Shown in pieces: positions 1-62,797 of a stretch of 64,000 nt of DNA (the stretch's first letter is position 1; each line of letters begins with the position of its first letter). The stretch comes from a bacterium (GTDB taxonomy: Bacteria > Patescibacteriota > Minisyncoccia > Minisyncoccales > JAGGXC01). Location of the stretch: NCBI GenBank assembly GCA_021157625.1, contig JAGGWD010000005.1, positions 2,118 to 66,117 on the forward strand. The letters are read 5' to 3'. The position numbers and the translations under genes were made by a program. The notes below the pieces were generated by a model. That model saw nothing but the letters and a program-made list of their open reading frames with translations. It was not told where the DNA came from and made no database searches.

Positions 1-1226
1 CTAACCTCCTAACTATCTCAGAGGTTCCACCTCCTTTGATGCACTTAGCTCCTCTGATCTCAAAAAGAGATCAGAGTCCTGCTAAACGCAGGAAGATTTA
101 GGGACCTTAGATGGGAGTCAGGGCTGTTCCCCTCTCGACCTTGGACCTTAGCGCCCAAAGTCTAACTGCCGAGAATCCACAACCGGCATTCGGAGTTTGG
201 TTGGGATACCTGGCTTGAAACCACGGATATCCCATCCAGTGCTCTACCTCCGGTTGCTTCAAACTCGACGCTAGCCGAAAAGCTATTTCGGGGAGAACCA
301 GCTATTACCAAGCGCGGTTGGCCTTTCACCCCTTGCCACAGCTCATCCCAGAGTATTGCACGGCTCACGGGTTCGGGCCTCCCCCCGACTTTCGCCGGGG
401 TTCACCCTGGCCATGGCAAGCTCGCTTGGCTTCGGGTCTCCAACACCACCTCTAAAGGTCGCGCTATTAACGCTCGCTTTCACTATGCCTCCGCTCCAGA
501 GGAGCTTAGACAAAGGTGGTATTGGAACTCGTTGGCTCATTCTTCAATAGGCACGCCGTCACCCCGCCGAAGCGGAGCTCCGACTCTTTGTGGGCAAGAT
601 GGTTTCAGGTTCTATTTCACCGGGGTCACCCCCCTGCTTTTCACCTTTCCCTCACGGTACTAGTGCACTATCGGTGAGACGGACGTATTTAGCCTTGGCT
701 GGTAGTACAGCCTGCTTCCTCCGAGACTTTCGTTTCTCGGAGTACTCAAGAAAGATAACAAGGAGCGCAAAGGGGTTTTCGCCTACAGGACTATTACCTT
801 CTATGGTGCCCCTTTCCAGGGTGCTTCGGCTAACCAACCTTTGCCTAAATACTCTCCCTCGGCAAGCATTCTTGTGCACCAGGAATGCTCCCGACGTTAT
901 CTTCTTGCAACCCCTCAACAAAAATTTGTTGAGGTTTGGGCTCTTCCCTTTTCGCTCGCCGCTACTAAGGGAATGGTTTTGCGCAAAAGCGCAAAACTTT
1001 GTTTCTTTTCCTCCGCTTACTGAGATGTTTCACTTCAGCGGGTTCGCCTCTCGGCAGAAAGCCGAGATGTTCCGATTTATCATCGGAACGGGTTTCCCCA
1101 TTCGGAGATCCCCGGATCACAGGTTGCTAAGCACCTCCCCGGGGCTTATCGCAGCCACGCCACGTCCTTCATCGCCGCCGTCTCCCGAGGCATCCACCAT
1201 CTGCCCATAAAATGCTTCTCTTGGCC
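1..1226 (-). rRNA. rrl: 23S rRNA, 5' ~1.2 kb (remainder lies beyond the window start)
   Basis: Reverse complement of 1226->1150 reads GGCCAAGAGAAGCATTTTATGGGCAGATGGTGGATGCCTCGGGAGACGGCGGCGATGAAGGACGTGG, the conserved 23S 5' end. Plus strand ~1018-1033 is the complement of GUGAAACAUCUCAGUA. Plus strand 289-305 is the complement of GCUGGUUCUCCCCG. GC is far above the flanks, and ORFs here are short and mutually overlapping. Confidence 0.95.
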
Positions 1227-28433: not shown

Positions 28434-28545
28434 AATGGTAGATCAAAAAACAAAAAATCTGCTTCCGCAGACAAAAAACAACAAAAAAACTTAATTATCC
28501 TCGGCAGGTCTTATTTTAATGCCTGCTGTCTGCGGATAAAGACAA
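28434..28545 (-). promoter_or_regulatory. rplJ leader with mutually exclusive long-range stem and terminator hairpin (L10-leader-type attenuator candidate)
   Basis: Minus strand CCGCAGAC (28535->28528) can pair with GUCUGCGG (28472->28465). That second segment overlaps the hairpin UCUGC-GGAA-GCAGA (28471->28458), which is followed by U6. Confidence 0.55.
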
Positions 28546-28549
28546 TTCT

Positions 28550-28579
28550 ATTATAACCAAATCTTTATTGAGCTGTCAA
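28550..28579 (-). promoter_or_regulatory. Promoter candidate for rplJ-rplL
   Basis: Minus strand: TTGACA (28579->28574), 18 nt, TATAAT (28555->28550). Confidence 0.6.
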
Positions 28580-45163: not shown

Positions 45164-45560
45164 AAAGCCCAACTAGGCTGTAAGCCGAATTCTGTACTTT
45201 TTCGGTATTTCTACCGAAAAAGTGGTAATCATTTCTCTGGGCCAGCAATTGCTTGCTGGCTCATGCGAACTACTTTTTCTTTTCGACAAATCCGGAGATT
45301 GTCGAAAAGTTTGTTCTTGCACCCGATAAGGATTTAGCCGTTTCACCCCCGAGATTTCTCTCGGGACTTTCCAACAACTCAGAGAGTTGTCGGAACCTCG
45401 GCTCTTTCGAGCCTCGGCGTCTCTGTTCGCACCTCTGGCCTCACGACCGACGGCTGTTAGCCGCTATCTTTTTTCCTTTCCGAATGGAAAGGAGGGTGTT
45501 CGGACTTTCCTTTCCGATTCCAAAAGGAATCGGAACGATTACCTCACCTAGTTGGGCTTT
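45164..45560 (-). ncRNA. rnpB: RNase P RNA, bacterial type A
   Basis: Minus strand: P1 5' AAGCCCAACUAGG pairs with 3' CCUAGUUGGGCUU. Conserved GGAAAGGAAAGUCCGAACACC near the 5' end, GGGGGUGAAACGGC internally, and ACAGAAUUCGGCUUACAGCC near the 3' end. GC-rich island. Confidence 0.9.
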
Positions 45561-58342: not shown

Positions 58343-60836
58343 ATTTAGGCCAGCAGCATTTTTTATATTTTTTCCCGGAACCGCAAGGGCAAGGATCGTT
58401 ACGTCCGACTCGATTTAATGTTCCTTTTTTTGTTGTAGGAAAATATTGAGCAGAAGAAATATTCAAAGAAGGAGAGGTTTCTTTTTTCGTTTCTATCTTA
58501 AAAAGGTTTTGTACAATAGCAATTTCTATTGTCTCCAAAAATTTTCGAAAAAGACGATGACCTTCGGTTTTATACTCCACTAATGGATCCTGCTGACCAT
58601 ATGCTCTTAATCTCACCGAATCTCTTAGCTGATGCTCCATAGTATATAAATGATCTACCCAAAGCATATCCATCGTACGCAAAGCAATAAATCTCTCGAG
58701 TTGACGCATATTTTTCTCTCCTATCTCCTTTTCTTTTCTTTGATAACCCTCTTTTGAGAAACCATGTTTCTCAATCATCTCTAGAATTTTGTTATGTAAC
58801 TCCTCCTCAGACGCTCTGAGAATTTCTTTTCGTTTTTTGTAAAAAGTCTCTCTGTGTTTATTTAAGACATCATCATATTCTAATAGATGCTTTCTGGCAT
58901 CAAAATTCATCCCTTCTAATTTGGACTGAGCAGATTCAATAGCATCTGAAACTATTTTTGCTTCAATTGGTTGATCTTCTGGAATATTCAATTTTTCCAT
59001 TAGAGACTTCAATTTTTCTCCCCCAAAAATCTGCATCAGATCGTCCTCAAGAGAAACAAAAAACTGAGAAGAACCCGGATCTCCTTGCCTACCTGCCCTT
59101 CCTCTCAATTGATTATCAATCCTCCTGGCCTCATGTCTTTCTGTTCCTATCACATGGAGTCCTCCTAATTCTCTTACTTTCTTTGCCTCTTCTAAATCAG
59201 GAGGGTTTCCTCCCAAGATAATATCTACTCCTCTTCCAGCCATATTGGTGGCTACAGTCACCTGTCCAAGTTTTCCAGCCTGCGCAATAATCTCACCTTC
59301 CTTTTCATGATTTGTTGCATCAAGAACCTGACAAGGAATACCTTCTTTTTCCAATAATCTTTTTATAATCCGATTCTTCTCTATAGCTCCTTCAGTATGC
59401 TCTCTGGCAGCAAATACTCCTGTTCCTATTAGAATTGGCTGCCCTTTTGCATGTCTCTTCTTGACTTCCTCTACTATTGCCTTAAATTTAGCTCTTTTTG
59501 TTCTGTATACTCGATCAGGCAGATCTTTTCTGATCATTGGTTTGTGAGTTGGAATAGAAATGACCTCAAGCCCATAAACTTTATCAAATTCCTCGGCTGA
59601 AGTTGCAGCAGTTCCGGTCATACCAGCAAGTTTTTTGTACATTCTGAAATAATTCTGAAAAGTAATTGAAGCTAGGGTTCGGGATTCAGGTTTCACCTCA
59701 AGACCCTCTTTTGCTTCTACTGCCTGATGAAGACCACCCGACCATCTTCTTCCAGGCATGAGTCTCCCCGTGAATTCATCTATTATAATTACTTCTCCAT
59801 TTTTGACTATATAATCTCTATCTCTTTTAAACAAAACCCTTGCTTTGAGAGCAGCTTCTAATTGATGAATAGTCACAATATCACTTTCTGCCCAAGGATC
59901 AAAACCAAGCTCTCTTACAATTCTATCTTGTCCTTGTTCAGTAAAAGTGGGAATTCGCATCTTTTCATCCATCTTATAATCTTGGTTTTCTTTGAGAGAT
60001 GCAATCAATCTTGCAAAGCGATAATATTTCTCGGTTGATTTCTCAGCAGGAGCAGCAATAATTAAAGGTGTTCTTGCTTCATCAATTAAGATTGAATCCA
60101 CTTCATCAACTATCGCATAATGAAAACCTCTTTGAACTTCTTCTTTGGGATCGTAGACCATATTATCACGCAGGTAATCAAACCCAAACTCGTTATTTGT
60201 ACCATAAGTGATATCGGCAAGATATGCCTCCTTACGAGAACAAGGACGTAAAAAATCTTCAACTACTTTAAAAGAACCAAGTTCATCGCGGATTCTGTCT
60301 TTCTCTTCATCAGGTTTTTTATAATCAGGATCATAAAGAAAAGACTGCTCGTGATTCAAACATCCTACCGAAAGACCTAAATAATGATATATTTGTCCCA
60401 TCCAGACAGTATCTCTTCGTGCCAGATAATCATTAACTGTCACTAAATGAACGCCCTTTCCTTCAAGGGCATTAAGATATAAAGGCAAAGTAGCAGCCAA
60501 AGTCTTTCCTTCACCTGTCTTCATTTCAGCAATTTTACCTTGATGCAAAACTATTCCACCCATCAACTGACAATCAAAATGTCTTTGGCCAAGTGTTCTT
60601 TTTGAAGCCTCCCTTACTACAGCAAAAGCCTCAGGCAAGATTTCATCAAGCGATTCTTTTTTCTTAATTCTTTCTTTAAATTCCTTGGTTTTCTCTCTAA
60701 GTTCATCCTGAGAAAATTTTTCGAATTTACTCTCAAGCGCATTTATCTTATCAACCAGTGGCTTGATCTTCTCTAAGTATTTTTTATTAGCATCACCAAA
60801 AATTTTATTTAGAATAGACATAGAATCGTAAGTCAA
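58335..60836 (-). CDS. secA: Preprotein translocase ATPase SecA
   Basis: [16 protein letters not shown], Walker [27 protein letters not shown], and the C-terminal zinc motif [13 protein letters not shown]. The alternative start at ATG 60821 (MSILNKIF) is plausible. Confidence 0.93.
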
Positions 60837-60847
60837 AGAAGTGCTTT

Positions 60848-61669: not shown

Positions 61670-62554
61670 TCAAAATCCCAAAAATTCAATTTCCTCCTCT
61701 AGTTCAATACCAAACTTCCTTTTAACTTCCTCTTTGGCAAGGGTAATTAAAAACATAACATCTTGGCTTGTAGCATTTCCCAAATTTATTATAAAATTGC
61801 CGTGTTTTTTTGATATCTGTGCTCCTCCTTTTCTTTTTCCTTTAAGAGAACATTTTTCGATCAGTTTTCCTGCAGAAAATCCTTCTGGGTTTTTAAAAAT
61901 ACAACCTGCCGAAAAACACTCAAGAGGCTGTTTTGCTTTCCGATACTCTAGATATCTTTTCATTCTCTTTTCTATCTCATAGATGGAATCTCTATCAAAT
62001 ACAAACTCTCCCGAAAGAATTACAAGTTCTTTATTCTTTTTAAAAATACTCTCTCGATAGCCAAATAGACAATCTTTTGTTGAATAATTTTTTATTGTCC
62101 TGGTAGATATATCAAAAACTCTTACATTCTTTACCAGATCAGCGATTGATTTTCCAAATGCTCCGCTATTTCCCCTTAGCGCTCCACCCACAGTTCCTGG
62201 AATTCCTGCAGCCCATTCAAGACCAGATAATCCTGAGTTTTTCGCAATGGTAAGTAATTGGGCTAAGTTGGCTCCTGCTTCTGCAATAATGCTGGAGTCT
62301 TTTCTTTCTATCTTGGAATTTTGGATTTTTATTACCAAACCATCAAAACCTTTATCAGAAACTAAGAGATTGCTCCCTCCTCCTAAAATAAAAAAGGGTA
62401 AATGATACTTCTGAGCTTGCTCAAGAGCTTCAATTATCTGCTGCTGGGAGTGAGCCACAAAAAAATATTTTGCCCGACCACCTATTTTAAAAGTAGTAAA
62501 TGGAGCTAATGAAACATCCTTTTTTATATTTTTCAACTCCTTTTCTATTGGCAT
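61670..62554 (-). CDS. murB: UDP-N-acetylenolpyruvoylglucosamine reductase
   Basis: LAPFTTFKIGGRAKYFF, ILGGGSNLLVSD, GIPGTVGGALRGNSGAFG, SAGCIFKNP. Confidence 0.92.
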   Translation of the reverse strand: MPIEKELKNIKKDVSLAPFTTFKIGGRAKYFFVAHSQQQIIEALEQAQKYHLPFFILGGGSNLLVSDKGFDGLVIKIQNSKIERKDSSIIAEAGANLAQLLTIAKNSGLSGLEWAAGIPGTVGGALRGNSGAFGKSIADLVKNVRVFDISTRTIKNYSTKDCLFGYRESIFKKNKELVILSGEFVFDRDSIYEIEKRMKRYLEYRKAKQPLECFSAGCIFKNPEGFSAGKLIEKCSLKGKRKGGAQISKKHGNFIINLGNATSQDVMFLITLAKEEVKRKFGIELEEEIEFLGF

Positions 62555-62571
62555 TAGAATGATAATTTACA

Positions 62572-62757
62572 CAAAAGGACCAGGGGAGTTGACTCCAATT
62601 CTAAGTCTTTCGGTGAGTGCTGGCCCCTGGTCCAATTTTTATTATACACTCCTAAAGCAATAAAGCAAGAAAAAAGTACTAGACCTTGCGCAAGGCAAGG
62701 TCTAGTACCGACTTTAGAATGGAGTCTCCGATTAAGAATCGGAGTCGCACTCACCAT
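62572..62757 (-). ncRNA. Unclassified structured RNA region (independent sRNA(s) or murB leader) with two terminator-like hairpins and internal long-range complementarity
   Basis: GC-rich island between a strong promoter and murB. The 13-bp hairpin 62708->62676 is followed by U6. The 10-bp stem GGACCAGGGG/CCCCUGGUCC (62633->62577) is followed by U4. Segments 62755->62747 and 62726->62710 are complementary to 62620->62612 and 62607->62591. Confidence 0.5.
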
Positions 62758-62762
62758 CTACA

Positions 62763-62791
62763 ATATTAGCAAAATTAAAATGTTCTGTCAA
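62763..62791 (-). promoter_or_regulatory. Strong promoter candidate driving the structured region and murB
   Basis: Minus strand: TTGACA (62791->62786), 17 nt, TAATAT (62768->62763). Confidence 0.6.
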
Positions 62792-62797
62792 GTGTCT

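What the first reader, a model, noticed from the sequence alone, without database searches (positions are those of the whole stretch)
62555..62797. GC-rich structured RNA locus upstream of murB: strong promoter, two terminator-like hairpins, an internal promoter, and 9-bp plus 16-bp long-range complementarity
Seen on the minus strand:
- P1: TTGACA-17-TAATAT (62791->62763).
- The RNA then begins around AUGGUGAGUGCGACUCCGAUUCUUAAUCGGAGACUCCAUUCUAAAGUCG.
- A 13-bp hairpin GUACUAGACCUUG/CAAGGUCUAGUAC follows, then U6 (62708->62670).
- P2-like: TTGCTT-16-TATAAT (62668->62641). Its predicted start coincides with the base of a second hairpin.
- That second hairpin is the 10-bp stem GGACCAGGGG/CCCCUGGUCC (62633->62577) followed by U4, 15 nt before the murB ATG region.
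- The 37-nt loop of the second hairpin contains GCACUCACC and GACUUAGAAUUGGAGUC. These are complementary to GGUGAGUGC (62755->62747) and GACUCCAUUCUAAAGUC (62726->62710) in the first RNA. A second near-copy, GACUCCGAUUCUUAAUC, is also present.
- The 67-aa ORF the track places here (62554..62757) is almost certainly an artefact of the GC-rich structure.

I cannot match this region to tmRNA, 4.5S/SRP or RNase P motifs by eye.

Inference, the possibilities are:
- a cis-regulatory leader controlling murB by alternative pairing;
- a pair of small RNAs that base-pair with each other;
- a known but divergent ncRNA class, such as 6S or the raiA-motif RNA (hpf/raiA lies one gene downstream).
Basis: partly seen in the sequence, partly recalled or inferred. 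Interest (0 to 1): 0.6.

Follow-up and report, generated by a model that had tools for sequence, protein, structure and literature searches.

The report
Two co-evolving small RNAs before murB
The region holds two separately promoted small RNA genes, not in any RNA family database, whose sequences have co-evolved to base-pair with each other and which sit immediately in front of the cell-wall gene murB in more than a hundred uncultured Patescibacteria.

Summary
Comparison with related genomes shows it is a conserved two-gene RNA module, not a chance GC-rich structure.

- **RNA1** (about 86 nt, 62757->62670, minus strand) has a consensus promoter with an extended -10. It runs: 5' segment X, variable hairpin P1, segment Y, terminator T1.
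- **RNA2** (about 60 nt, 62633->62573) has its own -10. It is a 10-bp GC-rich stem closing a 37-nt loop that carries X' and Y'.
- **Conservation.** I found the pair in 120 loci: 17 genomes plus a context-blind metagenome scan. RNA2's stem covaries at 10 of 10 pairs.
- **Intermolecular pairing.** The X:X' and Y:Y' helices covary: 8 of 16 tested pairs change on both sides, 0 of 500 shuffles reach this. Cognate partners pair better than non-cognate ones (0 of 5000 permutations).
- **Independence.** RNA2 has flipped orientation repeatedly, and genes have inserted between the two RNAs, so they are independent transcripts.
- **murB linkage.** murB follows within 400 nt in 95 of 99 loci with room. 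In about a third of tandem loci RNA2 is fused to murB as its leader.
- **Known families.** There is no Rfam match and I found no description in the literature. The 67-aa ORF is an artefact.

Function is unproven. My best guess is riboregulation of murB; the main rival is an autonomous two-piece structured RNA.

The parts
62763..62791 (-). RNA1 promoter: TTGACA (62791->62786), 17 nt, TGc-TAATAT (62771->62763). Consensus -35 plus extended -10.
   Evidence: 108 of 109 distinct upstream sequences in relatives have TTGACN-16/17-TAnnnT, and 106 of them have TG at -15/-14.
62670..62757 (-). RNA1, about 86 nt. Start inferred at about 62757-62755; end at the U6 run.
   Evidence: nhmmer finds it in 122 loci. 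Alignment with the close relative L130 shows conserved pairing segments and compensatory changes in T1.
62747..62755 (-). Segment X (GGUGAGUGC) at the extreme 5' end of RNA1. It pairs with X' in the RNA2 loop.
   Evidence: repeat I5, 9 of 9. X helix is 97.8% paired, and 5 of 9 pairs show changes on both sides.
62726..62744 (-). P1 hairpin of RNA1 (CUCCGAUU-CUU-AAUCGGAG). In this lineage its 5' arm is a near-copy of Y.
   Evidence: P1 is present in 88 of 94 distinct RNA1 sequences, varies in length, has a GNRA tetraloop in 58, and is absent in 6.
62710..62726 (-). Segment Y (GACUCCAUUCUAAAGUC). It pairs with Y' in the RNA2 loop.
   Evidence: repeat I2. Ya sub-helix is 95.3% paired with C-G<->U-A and other exchanges. 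Entirely different but still complementary Y/Y' in L040, L057 and L008.
62670..62709 (-). T1: 15-bp terminator hairpin of RNA1 plus U6.
   Evidence: terminator scan; repeat I1. Compensatory changes against L130.
62641..62668 (-). RNA2 promoter: weak -35 TTGCTT, 16 nt, TATAAT. The predicted start falls at the base of the RNA2 stem.
   Evidence: A TAnnnT -10 lies a few nt before the stem in all 116 distinct relatives.
62573..62633 (-). RNA2, about 60 nt. 10-bp stem (62633->62624 with 62586->62577), 37-nt loop, U4 (62576->62573).
   Evidence: Covariance model R1 scores 70.6 bits here and hits 85 loci. Stem is 98.7% paired, 10 of 10 pairs compensatory, 0 of 500 shuffles.
62612..62620 (-). X' (GCACUCACC) in the RNA2 loop.
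62591..62607 (-). Y' (GACUUAGAAUUGGAGUC) in the RNA2 loop.
61670..62554 (-). murB (FAD_binding_4 + MurB_C), the invariant downstream neighbour of the RNA pair.
   Evidence: murB lies within 400 nt, on the RNA1 strand, in 95 of 99 loci with room, from a scan that did not use gene context.
62554..62757 (-). 67-aa ORF: an artefact that runs across RNA1, its terminator, the RNA2 promoter and RNA2.
   Evidence: No Pfam match. A spanning ORF exists in only 7 of 84 tandem loci.

Best explanation
**Shown.** The locus encodes two independent small RNAs.
- RNA1 is made from a near-perfect sigma-70 promoter and ends at its own terminator.
- RNA2 is a single long-loop hairpin with its own -10.
- RNA1 pairs with the two halves of the RNA2 loop. 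Its extreme 5' end (X, 9-11 bp) pairs with the loop's 5' half. A second segment (Y, 12-17 bp) pairs with the loop's 3' half.
- X precedes Y in RNA1 and X' precedes Y' in RNA2, so the pairing is a crossing, pseudoknot-like topology. The RNA2 stem, helix X, hairpin P1 and helix Y meet in a four-way junction, or a three-way junction where P1 is absent.

**Inferred.** The module is a riboregulatory device for murB.
- RNA2 is probably ancestrally the murB 5' leader. It is still fused to murB, with the AUG 8-25 nt after the stem, in about a third of tandem loci and in several deep-branching lineages.
- Elsewhere its stem plus U-run acts as an attenuator or terminator placed directly before murB.
- RNA1 acts in trans as a clamp that closes the large loop. 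That would change how readily the stem forms and how accessible or stable the murB 5' end is.
- In lineages where RNA2 has flipped and murB is leaderless, any coupling would be indirect, through overlapping back-to-back promoters.

The confidence given is for the whole statement. That these are two RNAs that pair with each other I put at about 0.9. That they regulate murB I put at about 0.4.
For: - **Two units.** RNA1 and RNA2 co-occur in 120 of 135 RNA2 loci; most of the RNA2-only cases lie at contig ends. 84 are tandem and 36 convergent; none is divergent and RNA2 never comes first. Whole genes lie between them in about 25 loci. Promoters are conserved.
- **Terminators.** RNA2 has a U-run or a separate terminator hairpin in essentially all convergent loci, and a U-run in 46 of 76 tandem loci.
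- **RNA-level pairing.** RNA2 stem: 10 of 10 compensatory pairs. X and Ya: 96.7% paired, 8 of 16 pairs changed on both sides, 0 of 500 shuffles, slid controls 20-40%. Cognate against permuted partners: 0 of 2000 and 0 of 5000.
- **Divergent lineages.** L040, L057, L008 and L003 have different but still complementary X or Y, and each ranks its own partner first.
- **Strand-specific.** At X pair 9 there are 40 U.G against 42 C-G and no C.A, which argues for selection on RNA rather than DNA.
- **murB link.** 95 of 99 loci from a context-blind DNA-pattern scan. 25-30 of 76 tandem loci have no U-run, no promoter-like site, and the murB start 8-20 nt after the stem. L040, L006, L027 and L008 are similar.
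- **Neighbourhood.** Upstream neighbours are almost always cell-envelope genes: Wzy_C/TPR, peptidoglycan-binding, Wzz-like, CapD, DegT, sugar transferase.
Against: - No expression data. Transcript ends are inferred from promoter and terminator geometry only.
- RNA2 has been inverted several times independently. In 24 of 29 convergent loci murB has its own extended -10 placed 5-8 nt before the start codon, so it is leaderless. Yet the RNA1:RNA2 pairing is still maintained there. The selected function therefore cannot be only cis control of a murB leader.
- Neither RNA shows conserved complementarity to the murB start region.
- Other features suggest a folded particle rather than a simple antisense pair. 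These are the conserved unpaired nucleotides (the AAA linker, the AAC before the 3' stem strand), GNRA loops on P1 and palindromic T1 loops.
- Linkage to murB could be a neutral result of shared or overlapping promoters.
Confidence: 0.5

Rival explanations
1. An autonomous two-piece structured RNA. The RNA1-RNA2 complex is itself the functional entity, for example a scaffold or partner for a protein or an RNA-only particle, possibly dimerised through the T1 loop. It acts in trans on something other than murB. Its position before murB would then reflect promoter sharing or overlap and local synteny.
For: - The pairing is kept under selection in all three arrangements, including convergent loci where RNA2 is a terminated free RNA and murB is leaderless.
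- RNA1 has a full consensus promoter.
- Junction nucleotides are conserved and 58 of 88 P1 loops are GNRA.
- All 68 eight-nt T1 loops carry a self-complementary hexamer: CUCGAG, CUAUAG or CUUAAG.
- Neither RNA pairs with the murB start.
Against: - The RNA2-murB link is tighter than the RNA1-RNA2 link: 95 of 99 loci against about 95 of 120.
- RNA2 is physically the murB leader in many loci and in deep-branching lineages.
- The pair is restricted to one clade; other Patescibacteria have short AT-rich murB upstream regions. That is not what a housekeeping RNA would show.
- No candidate partner protein gene is consistently linked.
Confidence: 0.3
2. One long cis-acting murB leader (riboswitch or attenuator) transcribed from the first promoter, in which the long-range complementarities are alternative intramolecular pairings.
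For: In the window and most tandem loci the two units lie 23-40 nt apart on the murB strand. RNA1 is always co-oriented with murB, so read-through of T1 would place both units in one transcript.
Against: - T1 is a strong conserved terminator followed by a conserved -10 for RNA2.
- 36 loci have RNA2 on the opposite strand.
- About 25 loci have 250-1200 nt, including whole genes, between the units.
Confidence: 0.07
3. A DNA-level element: repeated operator-like or invertible sites bound by a protein, with the complementarities being inverted DNA repeats.
For: The 17-nt unit occurs three times in the window, twice direct and once inverted. RNA2 has been inverted repeatedly.
Against: - G.U wobble pairs are frequent on the proposed RNA strands with no matching C.A.
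- X and Y are in swapped order, which does not fit a simple inverted repeat.
- The whole RNA2 unit, promoter included, is what inverts.
- The stems covary.
Confidence: 0.04
4. A divergent member of a known RNA class (6S, raiA-motif, SRP, tmRNA, or a type I toxin-antitoxin locus), or a real 67-aa protein gene.
For: hpf/raiA lies one gene downstream in the window. The combined length is in the range of 6S RNA.
Against: - No Rfam hit at E <= 10 in the window or E <= 1 in 10 relatives.
- ARAGORN finds no tRNA or tmRNA here.
- hpf is adjacent in only 25 of 82 loci with room.
- There is no conserved ORF.
Confidence: 0.03

Closest known systems
Countertranscript-driven attenuation on plasmids (pT181 RNAI/repC leader, pIP501 RNAIII) and the CopA-CopT four-helix-junction complex of plasmid R1 (from my own knowledge)
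   Same: A small RNA encoded next to its target binds a loop in the 5' leader of an essential gene. The complex forms a helical junction rather than a full duplex. Binding decides whether a leader hairpin or terminator forms.
   Different: - Those antisense RNAs are cis-encoded and fully complementary.
- Here the two genes do not overlap, and pairing is limited to two short co-evolving segments in crossing order.
- The locus is chromosomal and precedes murB.
- RNA2 is free-standing in many genomes.
Dedicated sRNA-sRNA or sRNA-sponge pairs, and adjacent non-overlapping type I toxin-antitoxin pairs such as tisB/istR-1, shoB/ohsC, zor/orz (from my own knowledge)
   Same: Two neighbouring, separately promoted RNAs with short regions of trans complementarity.
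   Different: - There is no toxin ORF.
- Both RNAs are highly structured with conserved junction nucleotides.
- The position relative to a housekeeping gene is fixed.
Obligate two-piece structural RNAs: U4/U6 snRNA, tracrRNA:crRNA, two-piece tmRNA (from my own knowledge)
   Same: Two intermolecular helices flank an intramolecular stem-loop to build a junction, and the helices covary between the two genes.
   Different: - The strand order is crossing rather than nested.
- No associated protein gene is known.
- No sequence or model similarity was found.
GlmY/GlmZ control of glmS in Enterobacteria (from my own knowledge)
   Same: Two small RNAs dedicated to one enzyme of cell-wall precursor synthesis.
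   Different: GlmY and GlmZ are homologous decoys that do not pair with each other and act through a protein, RapZ. Here the two RNAs are unrelated in sequence and pair directly.

Membership tests
6S RNA (Rfam RF00013) | Match to the covariance model: a long irregular hairpin with a central bubble formed by a single transcript. | tested here: not met
   No hit at E <= 10 or in 10 relatives. The region is two transcripts separated by a strong terminator.
raiA-motif RNA | Match to the Rfam model, and association with raiA/hpf. | tested here: not met
   No Rfam hit. hpf is adjacent to murB in only 25 of 82 RNA-bearing loci with room.
SRP RNA, tmRNA, RNase P RNA | Model match or ARAGORN detection, with the conserved domain IV or tRNA-like domain. 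| tested here: not met
   No hits in the region. RNase P RNA is found elsewhere in the window at 45165-45555.
Intrinsic terminator (for the first hairpin, T1) | GC-rich stem, short loop, and a U-run immediately 3'. | tested here: met
   15 pairs, 5-nt loop, U6. Conserved with compensatory changes.
Intrinsic terminator (for the RNA2 hairpin) | A stem followed directly by a U-run, with a short loop. | tested here: inconclusive
   A U-run of 4 or more follows the stem in 46 of 76 tandem and 17 of 30 convergent loci, and is absent in the others. The 35-37-nt loop is atypical for a terminator.
Cis-regulatory leader or riboswitch of murB | The element is part of the murB transcript in all members, in a fixed orientation upstream of the start codon. 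| tested here: not met
   RNA2 is on the opposite strand in 36 of 120 loci. murB has its own extended -10 at leaderless spacing in 24 of 29 convergent loci. The feature is met only by the subset of 25-30 fused tandem loci.
Trans-acting base-pairing small RNA with a dedicated partner | Separate transcription units. | tested here: met
   Each has its own conserved promoter and terminator. Orientation varies and genes are inserted between them. Expression itself was not testable.
Trans-acting base-pairing small RNA with a dedicated partner | Intermolecular complementarity maintained by compensatory change. | tested here: met
Trans-acting base-pairing small RNA with a dedicated partner | A demonstrated regulatory outcome. 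| not testable with these tools
   No expression or reporter data. There is no conserved pairing to the murB start.
Type I toxin-antitoxin | A small conserved toxin ORF in one of the RNAs. | tested here: not met
   An ORF spans the region in only 7 of 84 loci, with no Pfam match. Most RNA1 sequences start AGUGAGUG with no AUG.

The most novel reading that the evidence does not exclude
A natural trans-assembled (two-piece) structured RNA.
- RNA1 threads or clamps the closed loop of RNA2 into a pseudoknotted three- or four-way-junction particle.
- The particle may further dimerise through the self-complementary T1 loop.
- It would work as a folded sensor or scaffold, for a metabolite or a protein of cell-envelope synthesis, rather than as a plain antisense pair.
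- In effect it would be a bimolecular riboswitch-like or RNA-only complex coupled to murB.
Probability: 0.15. Interest if true: 0.85.

Novelty: new variant of a known kind. Interest (0 to 1): 0.66.

Why it matters
- **Little is known here.** Almost nothing is known about RNA-based regulation in Patescibacteria (CPR). They cannot be cultured alone and have tiny genomes.
- **A testable system.** This is a widespread, clade-specific pair of small RNAs with unusually clear intermolecular covariation, fixed at the start of an essential peptidoglycan gene. The two short RNAs have defined pairing rules and natural variants in three gene arrangements. That makes it a directly testable model for how these organisms control cell-wall synthesis.
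- **A possible new class.** If the complex turns out to be a folded particle rather than an antisense pair, it would add a rare example of an obligate two-piece bacterial RNA.
- **Annotation.** These loci are currently mis-annotated with a spurious 67-aa ORF (L201).

Tried and rejected
- **Rfam.** Searched at gathering thresholds and at permissive E-values on the window and on 10 relatives. Only noise came back: a patAB leader on the wrong strand at 24.8 bits against a 92-bit threshold, and miRNA models.
- **ARAGORN.** No tRNA or tmRNA in the region. I considered a split tRNA because the window's P1 loop resembles a Lys anticodon loop. I dropped the idea because P1 varies freely or is absent in relatives.
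- **secA as a trans target.** The RNA2 loop pairs in silico with the secA 5' region of the window (-33.6 kcal/mol, the best non-self hit). This is not conserved, even in the closest relative L130.
- **Pairing to the murB start.** For either RNA, cognate pairs are no better than non-cognate.
- **hpf/raiA linkage.** Inconsistent.
- **Phage origin.** The pattern has no match in viral contigs.
- **Strain-level inversion.** The two other contigs encoding an identical MurB have an RNA region identical to the window's, so they give no evidence of inversion between strains.
- **Literature.** Four full-text searches found no description.
- **Correction.** The U-run classification had an offset error.
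- **Limits.** The HMM alignment of the Yb sub-helix (GGAG:CUCY) was too unreliable to count column by column, so it is supported only by the energy test. The metagenome pattern fixed the core of X' and Ya'. Covariation there therefore comes from the unfixed positions and from the murB-based genome set.

Full report
**Observation.**
The elements are:
  - a TTGACA-17-TAATAT promoter that also carries a TG extended -10;
  - a 15-bp hairpin followed by U6;
  - a TATAAT -10 with a weak -35;
  - a 10-bp GC-rich stem closing a 37-nt loop followed by U4;
  - two long-range complementarities, 9 of 9 and 16-17 nt.
- The region folds far better than shuffled sequence (z = -6.1).
- The window comes from a Patescibacteria (CPR) genome. 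The nearest species-level relatives have MurB at 56% identity and are labelled Paceibacterota or Nealsonbacteria.

**It is not a known RNA.**
- Rfam 15 gives nothing in the region at gathering thresholds or at E <= 10. It also gives nothing in ten related loci.
- ARAGORN finds no tRNA or tmRNA here.
- Four full-text literature searches found no description.

**Two conserved genes.**
- nhmmer with the 240-nt region found homologous sequence upstream of murB in many of the 80 murB loci fetched from species-representative genomes. In some of these the second hairpin was on the other strand or far from the first unit.
- I therefore treat the region as two units.
  - RNA1 consists of X, hairpin P1, Y, then terminator T1.
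  - RNA2 is a stem closing a loop that carries X' and Y'.
- A covariance model of RNA2 found 17 genomic examples.
- Across all loci, RNA2 occurs in 135, RNA1 in 122, and both in 120. Most of the RNA2-only cases sit at contig ends.
- RNA1 promoters are near-invariant: 108 of 109 have TTGACN-16/17-TAnnnT, and 106 of those have the TG. Every RNA2 has a TAnnnT -10 a few nt before its stem.
- The close relative L130 conserves X, P1, Y and the RNA2 loop. It shows compensatory changes in T1 and in the RNA2 stem, while spacers and flanks diverge.

**The two RNAs pair with each other.**
- The RNA2 stem is 98.7% paired, and all 10 pairs show changes on both sides (0 of 500 shuffles).
- For the intermolecular helices I joined the HMM match columns of X, Y and the RNA2 loop into one alignment (A6).
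  - X (9 bp) plus Ya (7 bp) are 96.7% paired.
  - 8 of 16 pairs change on both sides, in 37 cells.
  - 0 of 500 shuffles reach this, and slid registers give only 20-40% pairing.
- The clearest exchanges are at the first nucleotide of RNA1 (A-U 60, U-A 15, G-C 2) and at the last Ya pair (C-G 75, U-A 10).
- U.G is common with no matching C.A. That points to selection on these RNA strands, not on DNA.
- Permuting partners between genomes lowers pairing, from 0.881 to 0.853 +/- 0.002 (0 of 2000). It also weakens duplex energy, from -30.4 to -27.7 kcal/mol (0 of 5000).
- The window's RNA1 ranks its own RNA2 first of 102.
- Deep-branching versions have quite different sequences that are still complementary:
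  - L040: UCCAAUUACC with GGUAAUUGGA;
  - L057: GUUGUUUG with CAAACAAC;
  - L008: 13 contiguous bp and no P1;
  - L003: GUGAGGAC with GUCCUCAC.

**Architecture (inference from the pairing scheme).**
- X precedes Y in RNA1, and X' precedes Y' in RNA2. The two helices therefore cross and cannot be drawn without a pseudoknot.
- The inner ends of X and Y abut the RNA2 stem and P1. This gives a four-way junction, or a three-way junction in the six lineages without P1.
- The outer ends are tied together by the conserved AAA linker of RNA2. They lie next to RNA1's 5' end and T1.
- 58 of 88 P1 loops are GNRA.
- All 68 eight-nt T1 loops contain a self-complementary hexamer: CUCGAG 63, CUAUAG 3, CUUAAG 3. 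The two central bases are adjacent, so they cannot pair within one hairpin. This hints at loop-loop dimerisation. The window's own T1 lacks this motif.

**Independence of the two units.**
- 84 loci are tandem and 36 convergent. RNA1 is always on the murB strand and on the side away from murB.
- On a rough MurB tree the orientation of RNA2 changes about 15 times. Several convergent loci have a tandem locus as nearest relative, at 81-84% MurB identity against 70-77% to any other convergent locus.
- Convergent RNA2 genes end in a U-run or share a bidirectional terminator hairpin with RNA1.
- About 25 loci carry 250-1200 nt between the units. These insertions include:
  - an HNH endonuclease gene in about 10 loci;
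  - a roughly 193-aa protein I read as PaaX- or Cas2-like, from its sequence only, in about 6 loci.

**Relation to murB.**
- In the context-blind set, murB starts within 400 nt after the pair in 95 of 99 loci with room.
- The other four have toxin-antitoxin-like or other genes inserted. No locus lacks murB.
- The upstream neighbour varies but is nearly always a cell-envelope gene.
- Three arrangements exist.
  - **(i) Fused leader.** No U-run and no promoter-like site, with the murB start 8-20 nt after the stem. This covers 25-30 of 76 tandem loci and also several deep-branching lineages.
  - **(ii) Tandem with a U-run.** This covers 46 of 76 tandem loci, about half of them with a -10 placed 5-8 nt before the start codon. 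The window is in this class.
  - **(iii) Convergent.** The RNA2 and murB extended -10 elements lie back to back, and murB is leaderless in 24 of 29.
- Other Patescibacteria lineages lack the RNAs and have short AT-rich regions upstream of murB, so the module is clade-specific.

**Interpretation.**
- That these are two co-evolving, pairing small RNAs is well supported.
- Their function is inferred.
  - I favour a murB riboregulator at about 0.4. RNA2 would be the leader or attenuator, and RNA1 a trans-acting clamp on its loop.
  - The main objection is that the pairing persists where RNA2 is detached from the murB transcript, and that neither RNA pairs with the murB start.
  - That is why an autonomous two-piece structured RNA, tied to murB only through shared or overlapping promoters, is a serious rival at about 0.3.
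- A single-transcript leader, a DNA-level element, a known RNA family and a real 67-aa protein are each unlikely. The reasons are given under the rival explanations.

Noticed in passing
RNA1 terminator loops in relatives, e.g. L130:1318-1401, L122, L169, L153 (absent in window 62690-62694): All 68 eight-nt T1 loops carry a self-complementary hexamer: CUCGAG 63, CUAUAG 3, CUUAAG 3. The two central bases change together and stay palindromic. Because they are adjacent they cannot pair within the hairpin, which suggests kissing-loop dimerisation of RNA1.
   Followed up: partly
Between RNA1 and RNA2 in L082, L117, L123, L134, L146, L175, L180 and others; also L094, L124, L150, L190, L195, L196: Recurrent gene insertions exactly between the two RNA genes. 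One is a Cys-rich HNH-endonuclease-like protein of about 150 aa (about 10 loci). Another is a protein of about 193 aa that I read as PaaX- or Cas2-like (about 6 loci). Both identifications come from reading the sequences, not from a domain search. A cytidylyltransferase-like gene sits there in L084 and L100.
   Followed up: no
L134, L146, L156 (between RNA2 and murB): The rare loci where murB is not adjacent carry inserted toxin-antitoxin-like cassettes, identified by reading the sequences: AbrB/PIN-like and AbiEii-like.
   Followed up: no
Convergent loci, e.g. L017:2964-3003; window 62552-62572: murB appears to be leaderless in many genomes: TGnTAnAAT followed by 5-8 nt and then the start codon, in 24 of 29 convergent loci. 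There the murB -10 and the RNA2 -10 are inverted copies lying back to back. The window has only a weak TAAATT placed 9 nt before the ATG.
   Followed up: partly
window 60786-60840 (minus strand, secA 5' end): The secA 5' region is strongly complementary to the RNA2 loop in this genome only (-33.6 kcal/mol), and this is not conserved in relatives. The same comparison shows that the secA start is probably the ATG at about 60821, not the TTG at 60836 that the ORF list gives.
   Followed up: yes
window 62728-62744: In the window and L130 lineage the P1 hairpin is built from a near-copy of Y (5' arm) and a near-copy of Y' (3' arm). It looks like an internal duplicate of the intermolecular helix, and the RNA2 loop could pair with it as an alternative.
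   Followed up: partly
Tandem loci such as L152, L164, L106, L114, L159 (just after RNA2): In some fused-leader loci a short CCGG(G) segment just before the murB AUG repeats part of the 5' stem strand. It could form a small alternative hairpin with the 3' stem strand. L159 shows a matching change (GACC with GGUC). This might be an expression platform.
   Followed up: no
window 1-1220, 45165-45555 and 28443-28553: Other RNAs in the window. The 5' part of a 23S rRNA with extra inserted segments and no 16S next to it. An RNase P RNA that matches the class A model at only 145 bits, with several deletions and insertions. A borderline L10 leader hit, 46.3 bits against a threshold of 44.
   Followed up: no
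L201:1298-1501 (same contig family as the window): The public gene call on an identical contig lists the spurious 67-aa ORF that covers RNA1 and RNA2.
   Followed up: yes
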